Positions 48,511 through 55,736 are shown, counted from the first letter of the stretch. The stretch is DNA of 64,000 nt from an uncultured Anaeroplasmatales bacterium (GCA_964634685.1 CAZWLD010000004.1:12430-76429), one strand, 5' to 3'. The notes: generated by a model from the letters alone, not told the origin. Made by a program: numbers and translations.

Positions 48511-51500
48511 ATGAATAGATTTACGAAAAGCATAGGAAAAATCTTTTTCTTACTATGCTTATTATTAACCGTATCTTTAGCGGTAAATAGTAATCCTGGC
48601 AAAGTGTATGCTGCTGATGCCGAAGGTATTAGCGTTACTCGTGACAATACGGATGGAACTAAGACGGGATCAGGATGGACCTGGACAAAAACAGGTAGTA
48701 ATCAGTCAGGAAAATTATCTTTAAACGGCTATAACGGTGGAAGAATTGCAATTGGAGGTCCGGTTGGAGATACTGAAATTGAACTTATAGGAGACAACAC
48801 GGTTACTGTTACCGAGCCATATATTGATGGTGGTAATATCTGCTATGGGATTATCGTTTGTAATGCTCAAAACCTCACATTTAGTGGAAGTGGAACCCTC
48901 ACTATAAATGTTATGGCAACTTCAATGGTGAAGGTTTGTGGCGTTTATATTTATAAGGATAACGCTGTATCTTTAGGAAATCTTGTTTTTAGCGAAGGTA
49001 CAGTAAGCATTAATGTTACGTGCTTGAATTTGTCAGATGGAGGCGGAGCATACGGCATCAATTCATATGAAATGACAACCGGTGGATCCGTTACTGTTTC
49101 TGAAAATGCAACCCTTAAGATTGACTTGAAGTCTGATTATTATGGCAATGCATATGGAGTTTATTCATACGGAGATATCATATTAAATGGAACAGTTAGT
49201 TCGAAAATGGAGTATACAGGATCTAGTAATCCGAATAATTATTGGAGAGATTTTTCTTCTAATAGTTCACAAAATGTGATTGGTCTAAATGCAATTATTG
49301 ATTCGTATAATCCTGGTACAAGTGGAACATTATTAGGTTATTTTGCACTTGAAGCTAATAGCAATACAAAGATTGAAACTTGGACTTTAGTAGGATCAGA
49401 AGAAAAGTATTTTGAAAATGATAATTGCTTTGTCCATATTTCTGAAGTGAATGTTTACAGTGGATATGCAAGGTATTCATATCGTAAAATAGAGACTCCA
49501 CTTACCTTTGAGGATAAGGATGAATATGATATTCCAGAGATTGTATATGGTAATGAGGCATATTCAGCTCCTTTTGTCGCAACTGGTGGTAGTGGAGAAT
49601 ATACCTATACAATATATAGTGTTGCAAATGGTAATCAAACAGGTCTTAGAATTGTTGATAACAAATTATGCTCATCTGGTAGAGGAGTAAGTGAAGCTAC
49701 AACCTGTACGATTCAGGTAATGGATAAGGGTGGATACACAAAATACATCATTGTCAATATTGGTGCGGTTGTTGCGCCAACCTATAGTGCTACTGTTGAT
49801 GATATCGATTTTGGTACCGTTAAACCTGGATATGAATCAGTTACTGCCGTTCCTATTAATATTCATAATACAGGTACTGGAAATATAAAAATTATTTCTA
49901 ATAGTTCAGTATATCTCAGTAGTCAAAGTTATTTTATTTTAACATATGATAGTGTGCCATCATTAATTAATGGTGGTGAAACAAACACAAGCTGGAGTAT
50001 CAAACCTAAGGATGGCTTATCAGTTGGTACATACACCGTGACGATAACATTTAGAGGTACACCAGAATTACCAGGATTTTCAGGTGAAATCCAAGTTTCC
50101 GCAAAAGTTACTTTTGTTGTAAGTGACCATAATTTTGATACATCAAAATGGGAACATGATGATGAAAAGCACTGGAATCCATGTAAGGATGCTTTATGTA
50201 CTGCTCATGGTAATGAAGCTTTACACGATAAAGATGGTGAATTAACAGGTTATTATCCTGCAACTGAAGAAACAAATGGATATACTGGTGATAGGCATTG
50301 CTCAGTGTGCGGAGCTATATCTGAATATGGAGAAGTTATTTTTGCTAACAAGATTAATAGTGTTGAATTAGGATTTTCATCAGGAACTGATGAAATGATT
50401 GTTAGAGGAAGTAGTTATAATTTTAAGGCAAAAGTTATTGGCACAGGTTCTTTTGATAACACGATTAAGTGGATTGTAGAAGGCGGTTCGACAGGTACAA
50501 CTATATCGTCTGATGGTGTATTAACAGTAGCAGCAAACGAGGTTAATTCAACCATTACGATAAAAGCAGTTGCCAATGGCGATAATGAAGTCTTTGCCAC
50601 AAAAGTCCTTGATGTTTATTCAGAAGTAACTATTGTTAATGGAACTGAAACAACAGATTATTATTTAGTAGGTCAAACTATTGATCTTGCGGCTATAGAG
50701 GCAAGCGAAGGATATCATTTTAAAAACTGGACTAAAGATGGCTATGGATCCTTTACTAACGATAAAGCTAAAAATGCTCAGTTTATTGTCGCAAATTCCA
50801 ATGTAACTATTACATCAAATTATGAATTACATTATACAAATGATACAGTATGGACACATAATGCAACAAGTCATTACCATTTCTGTATATGTGGAGAAAA
50901 AATTGATATTGAAGATCATGTTTATGATAATGATGTAGATACAACTTGTAATGTTTGCGGATATGAAAGACCAGCCCATACTCATACAGCTGATAGTGAA
51001 TGGCATTATGATAATGATAATCATTGGCATATTTGTACAATTAATGGTTGTACCGAAAAGCTTAATGTTGAGGAGCATTCCTTTGGCAATTGGACGGTTA
51101 CAGTAGAGCCACAGGTTGGTGTTGCTGGTGAAAAGAAACGTGAATGTACAATTTGTGGATATAGTGAAACCGCTCCTGTTGATGCCCTTATCGAACAAAT
51201 CACTGTAACAGTTAATGGAGGAAAAGTTAATGGTGGCGCAAGTGTAACAGTTGACAAGAATGGTTCCGTTACAGTTGTTGCGGATTCAGCTCCAGAAGGA
51301 AAAGAATTTAAAGGCTGGAGTAAGGATGGTGGAGAAACAATCCTAAGTGAGGATTCAAGCTATACCTTCAACGCAACCGAAAATGTTACACTTACAGCGA
51401 TTTATAAGGATATAAAATCAAAAGGACTTTCTGGTGGTGCCATTGCTGGAATTGTAATTGGCAGTGTTGTTGTTATCGGAATCGGAGGATTTTCTATTTT

Positions 51501-51558
51501 TTGGTTTGGTATTAAGAAAAAGAAGTTCACAGACCTTCTAGCAGTTTTTAAAAAGTAA
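48511..51558 (+). CDS. 1015-aa surface protein: signal peptide, beta-helix-like repeats, Ig-like/Listeria-Bacteroides-type repeats, three His/Cys modules, C-terminal TM anchor
   Basis: The signal sequence ends in VYA/AD. Repeats follow a G(V/I)Y...(L/V)T(F/V)S..GT(L/V).I pattern. G.HFKNW and FKGW repeat signatures are present. His/Cys modules lie at 50128..50313, 50830..50964 and 50977..51162. The C-terminal hydrophobic helix is followed by KKKK, with no LPXTG motif. Confidence 0.85.
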   Translation: MNRFTKSIGKIFFLLCLLLTVSLAVNSNPGKVYAADAEGISVTRDNTDGTKTGSGWTWTKTGSNQSGKLSLNGYNGGRIAIGGPVGDTEIELIGDNTVTVTEPYIDGGNICYGIIVCNAQNLTFSGSGTLTINVMATSMVKVCGVYIYKDNAVSLGNLVFSEGTVSINVTCLNLSDGGGAYGINSYEMTTGGSVTVSENATLKIDLKSDYYGNAYGVYSYGDIILNGTVSSKMEYTGSSNPNNYWRDFSSNSSQNVIGLNAIIDSYNPGTSGTLLGYFALEANSNTKIETWTLVGSEEKYFENDNCFVHISEVNVYSGYARYSYRKIETPLTFEDKDEYDIPEIVYGNEAYSAPFVATGGSGEYTYTIYSVANGNQTGLRIVDNKLCSSGRGVSEATTCTIQVMDKGGYTKYIIVNIGAVVAPTYSATVDDIDFGTVKPGYESVTAVPINIHNTGTGNIKIISNSSVYLSSQSYFILTYDSVPSLINGGETNTSWSIKPKDGLSVGTYTVTITFRGTPELPGFSGEIQVSAKVTFVVSDHNFDTSKWEHDDEKHWNPCKDALCTAHGNEALHDKDGELTGYYPATEETNGYTGDRHCSVCGAISEYGEVIFANKINSVELGFSSGTDEMIVRGSSYNFKAKVIGTGSFDNTIKWIVEGGSTGTTISSDGVLTVAANEVNSTITIKAVANGDNEVFATKVLDVYSEVTIVNGTETTDYYLVGQTIDLAAIEASEGYHFKNWTKDGYGSFTNDKAKNAQFIVANSNVTITSNYELHYTNDTVWTHNATSHYHFCICGEKIDIEDHVYDNDVDTTCNVCGYERPAHTHTADSEWHYDNDNHWHICTINGCTEKLNVEEHSFGNWTVTVEPQVGVAGEKKRECTICGYSETAPVDALIEQITVTVNGGKVNGGASVTVDKNGSVTVVADSAPEGKEFKGWSKDGGETILSEDSSYTFNATENVTLTAIYKDIKSKGLSGGAIAGIVIGSVVVIGIGGFSIFWFGIKKKKFTDLLAVFKK

Positions 51559-51573
51559 AATCGATTTGAAAAA

Positions 51574-51609
51574 GGATCTATGAGGTATATATCTCGTAGG
51601 TCCTTTTTG
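51574..51609 (+). terminator. rho-independent terminator
   Basis: AGGATCTATGAG / CTCGTAGGTCCT stem (two G-U pairs) followed by TTTTT. Confidence 0.55.
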
Positions 51610-51699
51610 GAGGGTTGATAAAGCATGGTAAAGGATATATCTTAATTTAAACTCACAAAAGAAACGGCAAAAGAATATTTTTTTCTAAATGATTGTAAG

Positions 51700-52155
51700 A
51701 TGTCTTCAATTGATCGTAATGGATTATCTAATTCGACTAAGTTTCGAAATTATTGTTTTTCTAATTCGACGTTGTCTGAATGGACAAATGAGTGGATGAA
51801 ACCAAAAATTGTGGAAGGGATAATCAATAAAGATTATGAACTTTTATATTCTTTTATCGAAGATTATAGCGATAGAATTGATGTTGATAATTCATTGCTG
51901 TTAATTGAATTATATAAAAGTGTACAACAAGATTTTAAATTCTTGGAAAGAAAAGAATTAGATGTTTTATATCACTGTGAAGAACCTGTATTTTTGGATA
52001 GGAAATTTGAGTATGGATTGATTTATTTGGCTCATAAAAATAAATTGCCTAATGAGCAAAATATCCTTTTTGAGCGTTTTTTAGTAGTAAATTCGTCAAT
52101 AAATTTTTATGATGATTTTTTTATATCTAAAATGAAAAGAGAATTAATGAACTAA
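51700..52155 (+). CDS. hypothetical protein
   Basis: 151-aa ORF with no convincing RBS and no recognised motif. Confidence 0.4.
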   Translation: MSSIDRNGLSNSTKFRNYCFSNSTLSEWTNEWMKPKIVEGIINKDYELLYSFIEDYSDRIDVDNSLLLIELYKSVQQDFKFLERKELDVLYHCEEPVFLDRKFEYGLIYLAHKNKLPNEQNILFERFLVVNSSINFYDDFFISKMKRELMN

Positions 52156-52435
52156 TTGTAATAAAGAGTCCCCAACAAGGAGGATTCTTTTTTTATGGTG
52201 TTAAATAATTTGAAATTATTATCGACATCTTATTCAATAGAAAGAAGTTTAATCAAAATGTTTTATGGAATTAAAAAGGGTAGAACCTTTTTTATGCATA
52301 CAATCCCTTCGTATTTGGTAATCAGTTGTTTATGTCAATTCCATTATACAAAGGAAGCTTTTTGCTGAAAGATTTACTCCGATTATTTTATTATTTATAT
52401 ATTTTTTGATATAAACTTTAATAAAATGAAGGAAG

Positions 52436-52480
52436 GGGTTACAAATGTAACTCCTCTCTTTTTTTTATTGATGATAAAAT
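52436..52480 (+). promoter_or_regulatory. operator-promoter copy B: GGGTTACAAATGTAACT palindrome plus an extended -10 TGATAAAAT
   Basis: GTTACA-AA-TGTAAC at 52438..52451 and TAAAAT at 52475..52480. The distance from palindrome centre to the -10 is identical to copy A. Confidence 0.6.
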
Positions 52481-52893: not shown

Positions 52894-52912
52894 GAAAGTT
52901 ATTTTATAAAAA

Positions 52913-53405
52913 ATGTTAAATTAGTTTTTGCTTTGACTTTAGTTATGATGATTTGTTCGATTATCCTTGTTGGTTGTGGTGAAAAGCAAGCCATTGCAAA
53001 AAAAAAATAGCTGCCGATGCTACTGCTCATGACCATTCCTATAATCTTTGGGAAGCTGATGAGGAAAATCATTATCAAGTATGTAGTGAAGGAAATTGTG
53101 AAGAAGAAGTTAATAGGGGACCACATAATTTTGATAATGGTACGGTTTTAGCCGTTGCGGATAGCGGAAAAAATGGCTTGAAGGTCTATACCTGTACTAC
53201 CTGTGGATATAAATCATATGTTTATTTTCCAATTGAAAAGACAGAGACTATTCAAAAAACCGCAACAATTACTTTTGAAGCGAATGGAGGTACTCCTGTA
53301 GCTCCAATAACTGCTAATGTTAGTTCGAAAATTGAAGAGTCTACTACAACTCTTCTACCCCTTGGATCAGCATCAAGCGGAATATTTAAGTCTTACCAAA
53401 AATAA
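52913..53405 (+). pseudogene. small lipoprotein with one His/Cys module and a Listeria-Bacteroides-type repeat, disrupted at an A10 tract (and possibly at its start)
   Basis: Lipoprotein signal KLVFALTLVMMICSIILVGC-GEKQAIAKKK ends at TAG 53008. In the next frame, AADATAHDHSYNLWEADEENHYQVCSEGNCEE...YTCTTCGY...TITFEANGGTPV runs to 53405. The ORF track shows only 53178..53405. Confidence 0.55.
52998..53007 (+). repeat. poly(A)10 homopolymer at the frame break of the small lipoprotein gene
   Basis: Counted directly. One extra A joins the signal-peptide frame to the downstream frame. Confidence 0.95.
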
Positions 53406-53423: not shown

Positions 53424-55736
53424 ATGCAAAAGAAATCAATTTTAAGCTTAGCCATTATGGCAATGTTAATCGTTGGATTAACCTTAACTGGTTGTGGCAA
53501 ATCGCACAAATATAACGAAAATTGGTCTTCTGATGCCGAAAATCATTGGCATGCTTGCGAAGATAAAAATTGCGATAAAAAGAAGGATGTTGCAACCCAT
53601 ACATTTGATGAAGGAGTAGTTACAGTTGAACCAGGTATTGGTACAAAGGGTGTAAAAACTTATACCTGTAGCGTATGTAATTACCAAAAAACGGAAGAGA
53701 TTCCAGCAATTGACCACACTCATGTGGCTGGAAGTACTTGGGAGAAAGATGCTACAAATCACTGGACTTTATGTACCTGTGGTGAAAAAATGGATGTGGC
53801 TGCCCATACATTTGATGAAGGAGTAGTTACAGTTGAACCAGGTATTGGTACAAAGGGTGTAAAAACTTATACCTGTAGCGTATGTAATTACCAAAAAACG
53901 GAAGAGATTCCAGCAATTGACCACACTCATGTGGCTGGAAGTACTTGGGAGAAAGATGCTACAAATCACTGGAATTTATGTGAATGCGGTGAAAAAATGA
54001 ATGTCGCAGTTCATATTTCTAGTGATTGGATTGTTGATAATGAACCAGATTATGGTGTTAAAGGTAACAGTCATAAGGAATGTACTGTTTGTGGATTTGT
54101 TCTTGAAGAAAAAGAGACTGATGCCCCTCCAGCTAAGGATGTAACCATTACTTATGATGTTGAATTAGATAAGACATATGATGGTACTCCGGTAGCCTTT
54201 AATATCGCTGATGTAGTTGTTTCTAATGGCGCAACTCCAGTAGCTGAATGGTATAAGGTTGATGGTGAAAGCAACGCTACGAAGATTGAAAATGTACCTG
54301 TTGATGCTGGAACTTATAAGTTATTACTAAAGACTTTAGGAACTGCTGAATGGAAGGAAGCAACCCTTTCAGTTGATGTTCTTATTTTCACAAAATTTGG
54401 TGAAATTGAAGTTACAAAGGTTTTAGATAAAGTTTATGATGGCGAAGCTGTTTCTTTAAGTGATTCGGATATTACTGGAAATAGTGATGATCTAAGCTAC
54501 ACTATCACTTGGTATAATTATACAACTGATCATCCTGATTATGTGCTTGCTGAAGCACCAAAGGATGCTGGAAATTATACAGTGAAGGTTGAAATGGCTG
54601 AAACAAATAATGTTAGTAAAGCTTCATTTGTTGTTAACTTTGATATTTCAAGACGTACATTGTATTATGGTCAAACATATGCATACGGAAATCCAAATTA
54701 TTTAAACCCAAATCTTACTTGGGAAATCGGTGATACTTATTCTAATAATGGCTTTAAATCTACAAATAAAGTAGAAGGTGATTATGTTGCAATCAATTTC
54801 TGCTTTGATAATATTTATGTTGGTTCAAATTTAAGTGTATTTAAAATTGACGAAGCAGCTTGTATTGCTCATAATAGTAAAGCTCATTTAAATTATGTCT
54901 TAGATACAGAGGTTAAACCAGTGATTGTTCCGAAGAAATTAACTAATCTTAATTTAGTAACGGAATATAACGGCGAAAAAGGAAGACCTAATTTTGTATT
55001 AACAGCTGCCGATGGAATATTTGAGGATGATGATGTAAGAGTAGTAATCTCTGGTAATGCTCTAAGCTGGGATGCTTTGACCGAATTAACATTATCCTTA
55101 GCTGACAACATTGTTGGTGATGAAACTATTTCCTTTGTTGAGGAAGGTGAGTACGCAAACTATGTCTTGACTCTTACTGGTGACTATGTTGGAACACTTA
55201 CAATTAATCAAAAGGTTTTAACTAATCTTGATTTACAAACATATTATGATGAAACAGCCGGAAGAACAAATTTTGTTTTAACTGAAGCTGATGGAATTGT
55301 GGCTGGTGAGTCCGTTTTTGTAAATATTTCAGGAGATAATTCCAGTGATTGGGGAGAAGGAGATTCATATGTCTTGCGTTTAAAGGGAACTGTTCAAGGT
55401 GAAGAAACTATTACTTTAGTTGAAAATGAAAATTCATCAAACTATATTTTAGTAGAAAAAGATGGTAGCGTTGGAACAATTACAATTAATCATTCTGTTA
55501 TTCTAAAGAATATTACCTTCAAGGCTTCTCAAGGAATATTTTCTAATCGATTTGGATTTAAAACTTGGATATTTTCGCTAACTAATGAGACAGGACTTGA
55601 AGCTGGTGATACTGTAAATATTAGTGTTAAAGTATTTGATAATAGCGGTAAAATTAGCTTAACAAAAGAGAATACTTCATTTAATAATAAGAAATATTTT
55701 ATTGGTAGTGGTTGCTATCTTGATTTAGATAACTAA
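53424..55736 (+). CDS. 770-aa surface lipoprotein with three tandem His/Cys modules and Ig-like repeats
   Basis: Lipobox LTGC. Modules lie at 53505..54095. Repeated segments of about 90 aa follow (KV/TYDG..V ... AG.Y pattern). Confidence 0.85.
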   Translation: MQKKSILSLAIMAMLIVGLTLTGCGKSHKYNENWSSDAENHWHACEDKNCDKKKDVATHTFDEGVVTVEPGIGTKGVKTYTCSVCNYQKTEEIPAIDHTHVAGSTWEKDATNHWTLCTCGEKMDVAAHTFDEGVVTVEPGIGTKGVKTYTCSVCNYQKTEEIPAIDHTHVAGSTWEKDATNHWNLCECGEKMNVAVHISSDWIVDNEPDYGVKGNSHKECTVCGFVLEEKETDAPPAKDVTITYDVELDKTYDGTPVAFNIADVVVSNGATPVAEWYKVDGESNATKIENVPVDAGTYKLLLKTLGTAEWKEATLSVDVLIFTKFGEIEVTKVLDKVYDGEAVSLSDSDITGNSDDLSYTITWYNYTTDHPDYVLAEAPKDAGNYTVKVEMAETNNVSKASFVVNFDISRRTLYYGQTYAYGNPNYLNPNLTWEIGDTYSNNGFKSTNKVEGDYVAINFCFDNIYVGSNLSVFKIDEAACIAHNSKAHLNYVLDTEVKPVIVPKKLTNLNLVTEYNGEKGRPNFVLTAADGIFEDDDVRVVISGNALSWDALTELTLSLADNIVGDETISFVEEGEYANYVLTLTGDYVGTLTINQKVLTNLDLQTYYDETAGRTNFVLTEADGIVAGESVFVNISGDNSSDWGEGDSYVLRLKGTVQGEETITLVENENSSNYILVEKDGSVGTITINHSVILKNITFKASQGIFSNRFGFKTWIFSLTNETGLEAGDTVNISVKVFDNSGKISLTKENTSFNNKKYFIGSGCYLDLDN
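53596..53973 (+). repeat. tandem duplication with a 207-nt period and a 171-nt perfectly identical core
   Basis: 53596..53766 is identical to 53803..53973, and the flanks diverge. The repeat duplicates one His/Cys module exactly. Confidence 0.92.

What the first reader, a model, noticed from the sequence alone, without database searches (positions are those of the whole stretch)
52913..53405. Small His/Cys-module lipoprotein broken at an A10 tract just after its lipobox; both A tracts of 10 nt or longer that I found sit at frame breaks and both need +1 A
The signal-peptide frame (…ILVGC-GEKQAIAKKK) ends at TAG 53008, immediately after A10 (52998..53007). With A11 it reads on as …KKKIAADATAHDHSYNLWEADEENHYQVC…YTCTTCGY…TITFEANGGTPV to 53405. 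A poly(A) tract in the first codons after a lipoprotein signal is the classic phase-variation design of Mollicute surface lipoproteins, for example the vaa-type on/off switch as I recall it. The Fic junction (A12) has the same +1 requirement. That consistency fits either systematic homopolymer under-calling by the sequencing platform, or a shared slippage mechanism (replicative phase variation or transcriptional slippage). The annotated start region may also be off by one base (ATGTTAAATTAG versus the expected ATG TTA AAA TTA G..).
Basis: partly seen in the sequence, partly recalled or inferred. Interest (0 to 1): 0.55.

Follow-up and report, generated by a model that had tools for sequence, protein, structure and literature searches.

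The report
Frameshifted remnant of a lipoprotein gene
The broken small lipoprotein gene is what is left of two neighbouring surface-lipoprotein genes that are intact in related strains; besides its reading frame it has lost its start codon and 1.5 kb of sequence, so it is an ordinary decaying gene and not a demonstrated on/off switch.

Summary
A10 (52998-53007) breaks the frame straight after a lipobox. A12 (26021-26032) splits a Fic gene. These are the only A runs of 10 or more in the window.

The interpretation mostly fails. Nine contigs from other samples all carry A8 in frame at the lipoprotein tract, so the window is 2 bases too long, not 1 too short. Ten contigs carry an intact 407-aa Fic gene with TT-AAA-G-AAAAAAAA where the window has T-A12. 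The shared "+1 A" need is therefore a coincidence of modulo-3 arithmetic, and it gives no sign of under-calling.

The lipoprotein ORF has two further lesions:
- Its true start codon (52906-52908) is ATA; it is ATG in strains with the intact gene.
- A 1.5-kb deletion fuses codon 147 of a 328-aa gene to the last 14-16 codons of the next 334-aa gene, cutting a Listeria-Bacteroides repeat at 27 of 65 positions.

Polymorphism in this deleted allele fits neutrality (8 non-synonymous to 1 synonymous). A sister strain carries a 12-base tract, also out of frame.

The best reading is a gene remnant whose poly-A tract drifts by replication slippage. A vaa-like switch in the intact A8 allele is not excluded. 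Interest is low.

The parts
52906..52908 (+). Former start codon of the lipoprotein gene. It is ATA in the window and ATG in strains with the intact 328-aa gene.
   Evidence: ATG is found in L004, L005, L019, L020, L021 and L022. ATA is found in the window and in L006, L007 and L008, and it is always linked to the deletion allele.
52906..52977 (+). Signal peptide (I/M)KNVKLVFALTLVMMICSIILVGC, with the lipobox LVGC at 52966-52977.
   Evidence: Read directly from the sequence, in the same frame as the former start codon.
52998..53007 (+). A10 tract. It is A8 (in frame, AIAKKIAAD) in nine contigs from other samples. The window is +2, which produces TAG at 53008-53010.
   Evidence: A 12-nt state is inferred for the strain that encodes P0196.
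53028..53210 (+). One copy of a roughly 60-aa extracellular module (invariant W, H, C, C, H, C, C), read in the frame downstream of the tract.
   Evidence: The module has 2059 relatives in the 50% representative library and up to 19 copies per protein. It has no Pfam family. The AlphaFold2 model is all-beta with pLDDT 78, and it has no significant PDB fold match.
53265..53354 (+). Truncated Listeria-Bacteroides (Flg_new, InlB B-repeat) domain. Only profile positions 2-27 of 65 remain.
   Evidence: The intact 328-aa protein matches PF09479 at residues 120-186, profile 2-65/65, E = 8.6e-11. The deleted allele scores 15.7 bits against a cut-off of 27. One search gives the alignment to InlB.
53355..53359 (+). 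Deletion junction. Five filler bases (CTACC) lie between gene-1 sequence (up to 53354) and gene-2 tail sequence (from 53360). In the intact locus 1516 nt occupy this place.
53360..53405 (+). Tail derived from the 3' end of the second lipoprotein gene (334 aa in relatives: ...SLGSASSVIFKSYKI*), including the stop codon.
26021..26032 (+). A12 at the Fic frame break. Relatives read T-AAA-G-AAAAAAAA here (13 nt, ...IVKEKKV...) in an intact 407-aa gene.
25623..26845 (+). Fic-family gene split into 137-aa and 270-aa ORFs. Apart from the tract it differs from all ten relatives at only one other position.

Best explanation
Window 52906-53405 is a non-functional remnant of a pair of adjacent surface-lipoprotein genes.

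In related strains the locus holds a 328-aa lipoprotein. Its parts are a signal peptide with lipobox, an A8 tract coding KK, one His/Cys module, one complete Flg_new repeat and a C-terminal region. A 334-aa paralogue follows it.

In the window's lineage three lesions have accumulated:
1. The start codon changed from ATG to ATA.
2. A 1516-nt deletion (with 5 filler bases) joined codon 147 of gene 1 to the last 14-16 codons of gene 2, cutting the Flg_new domain in half.
3. In the window's sub-lineage only, the A8 tract grew to A10, shifting the frame.

Lesion 3 is most simply explained by replication slippage on a tract that is no longer under selection for frame. A sister strain has 12 bases there, which is also out of frame.

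The Fic break at A12 is a separate, strain-specific lesion in an otherwise intact gene. It needs one lost base plus a G>A change, which together turned TT-AAA-G-A8 into T-A12.

Shown: the three lesions, the intact alleles, the tract lengths in other samples, and the truncated domain. Inferred: that the remnant makes no functional protein, that slippage was the mutational route, and that A10 and A12 are true bases rather than read errors.
For: - An intact locus exists in a related contig, L004: 328-aa, 334-aa and 701-aa genes, ATG start, A8. A further 328-aa protein is encoded in L019, P0042 is another 328-aa member of the cluster, and L020 shows the undeleted junction as far as the contig reaches.
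- A full HMMER search gives a 328-aa protein as best hit, 94% identical over query residues 1-117 only. The last 15 residues do not match, which marks the deletion junction.
- The DNA alignment shows ATG>ATA, A8>A10 and the deletion.
- ATA and the deletion are perfectly linked: window, L006, L007 and L008 against six ATG contigs.
- The tract is A8 in 9 of 9 other contigs.
- Flg_new is complete in the long allele and cut at profile position 27 of 65 in the short allele.
- Variable codons within the short-allele clade split 8 non-synonymous to 1 synonymous. This fits neutrality (expected 78% non-synonymous, p = 0.69). The upstream 126-aa gene in the same contigs shows 1 to 4 (p = 0.007), and Fisher's test between the two gives p = 0.023.
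- Independent decay: L005 carries the long allele with its own 1-nt deletion at a non-homopolymer site.
- P0196 needs a 12-nt tract and shares the window-private S139 and S145 changes.
- The assembly is otherwise clean. Other 7-8 nt runs have the same length as in relatives, A8/T8 runs lie inside intact ORFs, and the Logan contig is identical.
- Fic: ten contigs hold an intact 407-aa gene. Only 3 of 1224 columns are private to the window, and 2 of them are in the tract.
Against: - Three short-allele contigs (L006-L008) keep a 163-codon open frame with A8, and gene callers predict a 152-aa product from the internal ATG (MMICSIILVGC...). Some expression of a small protein cannot be excluded. These sequences are so close to one another that an open frame is expected by chance anyway.
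- The non-synonymous to synonymous counts are small.
- No reads, RNA or protein data could be examined.
- The Logan contig may come from the same reads as the deposited assembly, so the two may not be independent.
- The 12-nt state is inferred from a protein, not read from DNA.
- An A8 tract is long enough to switch in known systems: vaa, where A8 is ON (PMC524362), and swrA A8/A9 (PMC2831843).
Confidence: 0.78

Rival explanations
1. Functional phase-variable lipoprotein of the vaa/swrA type. The poly-A tract just after the lipobox is a contingency switch: A8 or A11 is ON, and A10 or A12 is OFF. The window strain is caught in an OFF state and the protein is made again after slippage.
For: - The tract sits 7 codons after the lipobox cysteine.
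- The in-frame length in relatives is A8, the same as the vaa ON state (PMC524362). It is in the range of other 5' homopolymer switches in Firmicutes (PMC2831843).
- Three length states occur among samples.
- The downstream frame is still open.
Against: - The window copy has ATA instead of ATG and a truncated Flg_new domain, so an in-frame tract would still not give the ancestral protein.
- 9 of 9 other contigs have A8, and none has the expected one-step OFF lengths A7 or A9.
- Both expanded lengths (10 and 12) are out of frame, and no A11 was seen.
- The substitution pattern fits neutrality.
- A8/T8 runs are common here (19 in 64 kb) and stable between strains, so an A8 coding KK is not a special design.
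Confidence: 0.08
2. Sequencing or assembly artefact. The true tracts are in frame (A8 or A11 for the lipoprotein; 13 nt, in frame, for Fic), and homopolymer miscalling in this one data set produced both breaks.
For: - Both anomalies are seen as DNA only in the window and the identical Logan contig.
- Long homopolymers are the usual site of indel errors.
- No reads could be inspected.
Against: - The errors would have to go in opposite directions: +2 against relatives for one tract, and -1 plus a G>A change for the other.
- A different assembler gives the identical sequence over 7.1 kb, and the same split Fic products are on record from Logan.
- All other 7-8 nt runs match relatives, and no other frame breaks were found among overlapping ORF pairs.
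- A second strain with a 12-nt tract shows that the tract really varies.
Confidence: 0.08
3. Rescue at the RNA or translation level. RNA polymerase slippage on A10 and A12, or ribosomal frameshifting on A AAA AAA, yields a fraction of full-length product, so the frame breaks are tolerated or even used.
For: - It is established knowledge, recalled and not tested here, that runs of 9 or more A give heterogeneous transcripts in bacteria, as reported for poly(A) frameshifts in insect endosymbionts.
- The Fic gene is otherwise intact and nearly identical to its 407-aa relatives, so partial rescue there would give a functional protein.
Against: - For the lipoprotein remnant there is no start codon and the domain is truncated, so rescuing the frame gains nothing.
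- Neither tract is conserved. Relatives have A8 and an interrupted tract, so this is not a programmed, selected feature.
- No RNA data are available.
Confidence: 0.05

Closest known systems
Mycoplasma hominis vaa (variable adherence-associated lipoprotein adhesin), switched by a poly-A tract in the 5' coding region
   Same: Both are surface-lipoprotein genes with a poly-A tract in the first codons after the signal sequence. In vaa the in-frame ON length is A8 (PMC524362), which is the same length as in the intact 328-aa allele here.
   Different: - vaa OFF states are A7 or A9, and the gene is otherwise intact and reversible at 1e-3 to 1e-4.
- Here the out-of-frame lengths are 10 and 12, and the copy has also lost its ATG and half a domain.
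- No switching has been shown here.
- There is no sequence relationship to vaa.
- The host uses TGA as a stop codon and has two-component systems and a c-di-GMP riboswitch, so it is not a code-4 Mollicute.
5' homopolymer-tract gene inactivation in Firmicutes (Bacillus subtilis swrA A8/A9, Listeria monocytogenes inlA A6/A7)
   Same: A poly-A run near the 5' end of a coding sequence acquires indels that truncate a surface or motility protein after a few codons (PMC2831843).
   Different: Those genes are intact apart from the tract, and reversion restores function. Here reversion would not restore function, because other lesions are present.
Ordinary bacterial pseudogenes or gene remnants with homopolymer indels; poly(A) frameshifts in decaying genomes, partly rescued by transcriptional slippage (recalled knowledge)
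   Same: There are several independent disabling lesions, an intact orthologue in close relatives, a neutral-looking substitution pattern, and a homopolymer that lengthens once constraint is lost.
   Different: This is not a reduced endosymbiont genome, and the neighbouring genes are intact. No evidence for rescue was obtained.
Listeria-Bacteroides repeat (Pfam PF09479 Flg_new; InlB B-repeat) surface proteins
   Same: The intact 328-aa and 334-aa proteins each carry one complete repeat that aligns to the InlB B-repeat of PDB entries 1m9s and 2y5p.
   Different: The window copy keeps only 27 of the 65 profile positions and scores below the family threshold.

Membership tests
Homopolymer-switched phase-variable (contingency) surface gene, vaa/swrA type | Homopolymer tract in the 5' coding region or promoter, long enough to slip (about 7-9 nt or more) | tested here: met
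   A10 lies 7 codons after the lipobox Cys. Relatives have A8 at the same place.
Homopolymer-switched phase-variable (contingency) surface gene, vaa/swrA type | The gene is otherwise intact in the OFF state, so that a tract change restores the full protein | tested here: not met
   The start codon is ATA instead of ATG. A 1516-nt deletion truncates Flg_new at 27 of 65 profile positions.
Homopolymer-switched phase-variable (contingency) surface gene, vaa/swrA type | Both ON and OFF tract lengths occur among close relatives, typically one step apart | tested here: inconclusive
   Nine contigs have A8, the window has A10, and one strain has an inferred 12 nt. The lengths do vary, but no A7, A9 or A11 was seen. 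Both non-A8 states are out of frame and confined to one sub-lineage of the already damaged allele.
Homopolymer-switched phase-variable (contingency) surface gene, vaa/swrA type | Within-population heterogeneity and reversible switching of expression | not testable with these tools
   This needs read-level counts, amplicon sequencing, colony immunoblots or proteomics.
Bacterial lipoprotein (Lgt/Lsp substrate) | N-terminal signal peptide with a basic n-region, a hydrophobic h-region and a lipobox [LVI][ASTVI][GAS]C | tested here: met
   The sequence (M/I)KNVKLVFALTLVMMICSIILVG-C is read directly. Only the pattern was judged; no predictor was run.
Bacterial lipoprotein (Lgt/Lsp substrate) | A usable start codon upstream of the signal peptide | tested here: not met
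   The window has ATA at 52906-52908. The next in-frame starts, TTG 52933 and ATG 52945, would remove the basic n-region.
Pseudogene / gene remnant | An intact orthologue at the same locus in close relatives | tested here: met
   L004 and L019 encode the 328-aa protein, and L020 keeps the undeleted junction as far as the contig reaches, in each case between the same flanking genes.
Pseudogene / gene remnant | One or more disabling lesions relative to the intact orthologue | tested here: met
   There are three: loss of the start codon, the deletion fusing two genes, and the +2 frameshift.
Pseudogene / gene remnant | Relaxed selective constraint | tested here: inconclusive
   The short allele shows 8 non-synonymous to 1 synonymous changes, which fits neutrality. 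The upstream gene shows 1 to 4, and Fisher's test gives p = 0.023. This is suggestive, but the counts are small.
Listeria-Bacteroides repeat (PF09479 Flg_new) protein | A match to the repeat profile above Pfam's gathering score | tested here: not met
   The window-type (short-allele) protein scores 15.7 bits against a cut-off of 27 and covers profile positions 2-27 of 65. The repaired window protein gave no family at E <= 0.01. The intact 328-aa allele does meet the threshold (42.2 bits).
Fic/DOC family (the second tract) | A match to PF02661 above the gathering score, and a single uninterrupted ORF as in relatives | tested here: inconclusive
   The 270-aa ORF matches PF02661 (39.8 bits against a cut-off of 24). 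The gene is split, whereas ten relatives have one 407-aa ORF. Domain membership is met; intactness is not.

The most novel reading that the evidence does not exclude
The A8 tract placed 7 codons after the lipobox of the intact 328-aa lipoprotein is a genuine vaa-like contingency switch in an uncultured low-GC, non-Mollicute Firmicute. The A10 and A12 forms seen in the window's sub-lineage would then show that the tract is hypermutable in nature. Alternatively, the short allele is still expressed from an alternative start and switched by this tract.
Probability: 0.08. Interest if true: 0.4.

Novelty: already known. Interest (0 to 1): 0.12.

Why it matters
It matters little in itself, because it is a strain-specific decaying gene.

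Its main use is as a caution. A poly-A tract after a lipobox, and two frame breaks that both "need +1", looked like a designed switch or a platform artefact. Comparison with a dozen related contigs showed an ancestral in-frame A8, lesions in opposite directions, and two further disabling mutations.

For annotation, 52906-53405 should be flagged as a pseudogene (a fusion remnant), and the Fic gene as frameshifted.

The locus does show rapid turnover of a surface-protein cluster within one species: deletion, repeat-number change, independent frameshifts and an insertion. The widespread, uncurated His/Cys module in these proteins may deserve a family description.

Tried and rejected
- A word-indexed protein search with the repaired 164-aa protein returned nothing, although close relatives exist. 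The exhaustive HMMER search and the cluster look-ups found them.
- An exact DNA scan of JGI metagenomes for the sequence flanking the tract gave no match.
- The GTDB genome scan with the mature protein gave only a 33%-identical module in a Faecousia MAG. The source species is therefore not among the representatives, and the taxon could not be named.
- Exact look-ups of several neighbouring proteins found nothing on record.
- A paper search for the sample accessions gave no hits.
- The promoter scan was uninformative, with 23 sites against 22.3 expected.
- I checked whether overlapping ORF pairs elsewhere in the window were further frameshifts. They are artefacts of upstream alternative start codons, not breaks.
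- I considered that the GTGA overlap at the Fic junction marks two naturally coupled genes. This was rejected because ten relatives have a single 407-aa ORF.
- The PDB fold search with the module model gave no significant match. The best E-value was 0.2, to zinc-ribbon proteins.

Full report
**1. The observation.**

The window is 32% G+C. It has exactly two A runs of 10 or more: A12 at 26021-26032 and A10 at 52998-53007. The longest T run is T9.

At the second tract, the frame that encodes a lipoprotein signal peptide (...MMICSIILVGCGEKQAIAKKK) stops at TAG 53008-53010. A different frame continues as IAADATAHDHSYNLWEADEENHYQVC...YTCTTCGY...TITFEANGGTPV... to the stop codon ending at 53405.

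At the first tract, a 137-aa ORF ends 4 nt into a 270-aa ORF that carries a Fic domain (PF02661, E = 8e-10).

The 19 A8/T8 runs and the T9 run lie inside long open frames or between genes. Overlapping ORF pairs elsewhere are alternative-start artefacts, not frame breaks.

**2. Related sequences decide the matter.**

Exact-protein look-ups showed that the window comes from a 93.8-kb NCBI contig. A Logan assembly of run SRR6824180 carries the same locus and is 100% identical over 7113 nt, including A10.

Proteins at least 90% identical to the neighbouring 126-aa gene led to nine further contigs from other samples.

In L004 the locus is intact. The 126-aa gene is followed by three genes:
- a 328-aa lipoprotein, starting ATGAAAAATGTT..., with signal peptide MKNVNLVFALTLVMMICSIILVGC, then GEKQAIAKKIAADATAHDHS..., and a complete Flg_new repeat at residues 120-186;
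- a 334-aa paralogue;
- a 701-aa MBG-domain lipoprotein.

The exhaustive HMMER search with the window's downstream frame gave a 328-aa protein as top hit. It is 94% identical over residues 1-117 and has no match for the last 15 residues.

**3. Three lesions in the window copy.**

These were found by DNA alignment.

1. The start codon at 52906-52908 is ATA. It is ATG in six contigs. It is ATA in the window and in L006, L007 and L008.
2. The same four sequences share a deletion. Gene 1 runs up to ...ACTACAACTCTT (53354). Five bases of unclear origin follow (CTACC), and then comes the tail of gene 2 from CCTTGGATCAGC... (53360). In the intact locus 1516 nt lie between these points. The deletion cuts the Flg_new repeat after profile position 27 of 65. 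The short-allele protein scores 15.7 bits against a gathering score of 27.
3. The tract is A8 in all nine other contigs and A10 only in the window. The window is therefore two bases longer than the in-frame state, not one base shorter.

**4. Signs of decay rather than regulation.**

Within the short-allele clade, 9 codons vary: 8 non-synonymously and 1 synonymously. This fits the neutral expectation of 78% non-synonymous sites (p = 0.69). The upstream 126-aa gene in the same contigs shows 1 non-synonymous and 4 synonymous changes (p = 0.007 against neutrality). Fisher's test between the two genes gives p = 0.023. The counts are small.

L005, which carries the long allele, has its own 1-nt deletion at a non-homopolymer site (TGTAC-ACCTGT). 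The gene has therefore been inactivated independently in another lineage.

One further cluster member, P0196 (143 aa), shares the window-private S139 and S145 substitutions. It can be produced from the window's flanks only with a 12-nt tract. The expanded tract thus varies within this sub-lineage (10 and 12), and both lengths are out of frame with the signal peptide. No A7, A9 or A11 form was found.

**5. The Fic junction.**

Ten contigs from other samples encode a single 407-aa protein that reads ...LEIVKEKKVKNANEQ.... Their DNA is ATTG-TT-AAA-G-AAAAAAAA-GTG, where the window has ATTG-T-AAAAAAAAAAAA-GTG. The window has therefore lost one base and changed G to A, or an equivalent two-step path.

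Only three alignment columns out of 1224 are private to the window, and two of them are in this tract. The frame-shifting base need not have been an A at all. This lesion differs in direction and in kind from the lipoprotein lesion. The shared "+1 A" requirement is simply what any -1 or +2 change looks like modulo 3.

**6. Artefact or real?**

Evidence that the tracts are real:
- All other A/T runs of 7-8 nt in the regions shared with relatives have identical lengths in every relative.
- A second assembler reproduces A10, and the split Fic products are also on record from Logan.
- The two differences from relatives go in opposite directions.
- Another strain shows a further length state.

This argues against systematic homopolymer under-calling. 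Reads could not be inspected, and the Logan run may be the same data as the deposited assembly, so a residual doubt of about 8% remains.

**7. Mechanism.**

The best-supported account, which I hold at about 0.78, runs in three steps:
- A surface-lipoprotein pair was reduced to a fusion remnant by a deletion.
- The remnant lost its ATG.
- With selection for frame gone, the A8 tract drifted upward by replication slippage (A10 in the window, 12 nt in a sister strain). Longer runs slip more readily.

The lesions and the allele distribution are shown. Non-expression and the slippage route are inferred.

The Fic break is an unrelated recent lesion in an otherwise intact gene. Some full-length Fic protein could arise by transcriptional slippage on A12. 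That is general knowledge, not tested here.

**8. Comparison with known systems.**

The vaa gene of M. hominis switches on A8 (ON) against A7 or A9 (OFF), at a rate of 1e-3 to 1e-4 (PMC524362). swrA, flhA and inlA use 5' homopolymers in a similar way (PMC2831843).

The intact 328-aa allele here has an A8 at a comparable position, so a switch in that allele is not excluded. However, A8 runs are common and stable in this genome, and all nine consensus sequences are A8.

The window copy fails the defining requirement that the gene be intact apart from the tract.

The host is not a code-4 Mollicute. LeuRS is full length with TGA read as stop, and the window also encodes PhoR-type kinases, a PPi-dependent phosphofructokinase and a c-di-GMP-I riboswitch. 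The taxon could not be named: the GTDB scan found only a distant Faecousia module.

**9. The protein family.**

The His/Cys module is about 60 aa long. Seven copies in the window share invariant W15, H22, C26, C31, H40, C63 and C66. It occurs in 2059 proteins of the 50% representative library, with up to 19 copies per protein. It has no Pfam family.

An AlphaFold2 model is all-beta with six strands and a mean pLDDT of 78. It has no significant PDB match; the best E-value is 0.2, to zinc-ribbon proteins. A zinc-binding extracellular repeat is a reasonable guess, but it is not shown.

**10. Verdict.**

The feature is an ordinary gene remnant, and interest is low.

Noticed in passing
window 53424-55736 (tandem repeat at 53571-54008); L004 6031-8136; L005 6985-9090: The downstream 770-aa MBG-domain lipoprotein contains a 207-nt tandem repeat of 2.1 copies, and each unit encodes one His/Cys module. 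The orthologue is 701 aa (one unit fewer) in L004, 770 aa in L006, and split into 289 + 397 aa in L005. The repeat number and the intactness of this surface protein therefore vary between strains.
   Followed up: partly
window 53028-53210, and further copies in 48511-51558 and 53424-55736: A roughly 60-aa module with invariant W, H, C, C, H, C, C is very widespread. It occurs in 2059 representative proteins, with up to 19 copies each, but matches no Pfam family. The AlphaFold2 model is all-beta with pLDDT 78, and it has no significant PDB fold match. It may be an uncurated zinc-binding extracellular repeat.
   Followed up: partly
window 51581-52418: About 0.84 kb that holds a 151-aa ORF (51700-52155, no Pfam match) and a 57-aa ORF is absent from six related contigs, including the short-allele contig L007. 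Those contigs have about 110-145 nt in its place. This looks like a window-lineage insertion. Parts of the flanking intergenic sequence are repeated on both sides of the 1015-aa gene.
   Followed up: partly
L005 around 5240 (long allele of the lipoprotein gene): An independent 1-nt deletion at a non-homopolymer site (TGTACTACCTGT becomes TGTAC-ACCTGT) frameshifts the otherwise intact 328-aa gene in another strain.
   Followed up: yes
window 25623-26845: The Fic gene is split by the strain-specific tract change. Its active-site region reads HPYIDFNGRTAR, which departs from the canonical HPFx[D/E]GNGRxxR motif at the first glycine. In most other samples the gene sits on very short contigs (1.3-2 kb), which suggests repeats or a variable context around it.
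   Followed up: partly
protein P0196 (ENA, 2 contigs; DNA not fetched): This 143-aa product, MVKSKPLQKKKIAADATAH..., can arise only from a 12-nt tract on the window's flanks. It shares the window-private S139 and S145 changes, so it represents a third tract-length state in a sister strain.
   Followed up: partly
window 63126-63209 (+): A c-di-GMP-I riboswitch aptamer (RF01051, 75 bits) lies upstream of an open frame that runs off the end of the window.
   Followed up: no
window 52434-52466: A terminator-like hairpin followed by T8 lies just upstream of the 126-aa receiver-like gene. That gene and the lipoprotein genes may therefore form one transcription unit. The T8 has the same length in all eight relatives that cover it.
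   Followed up: no
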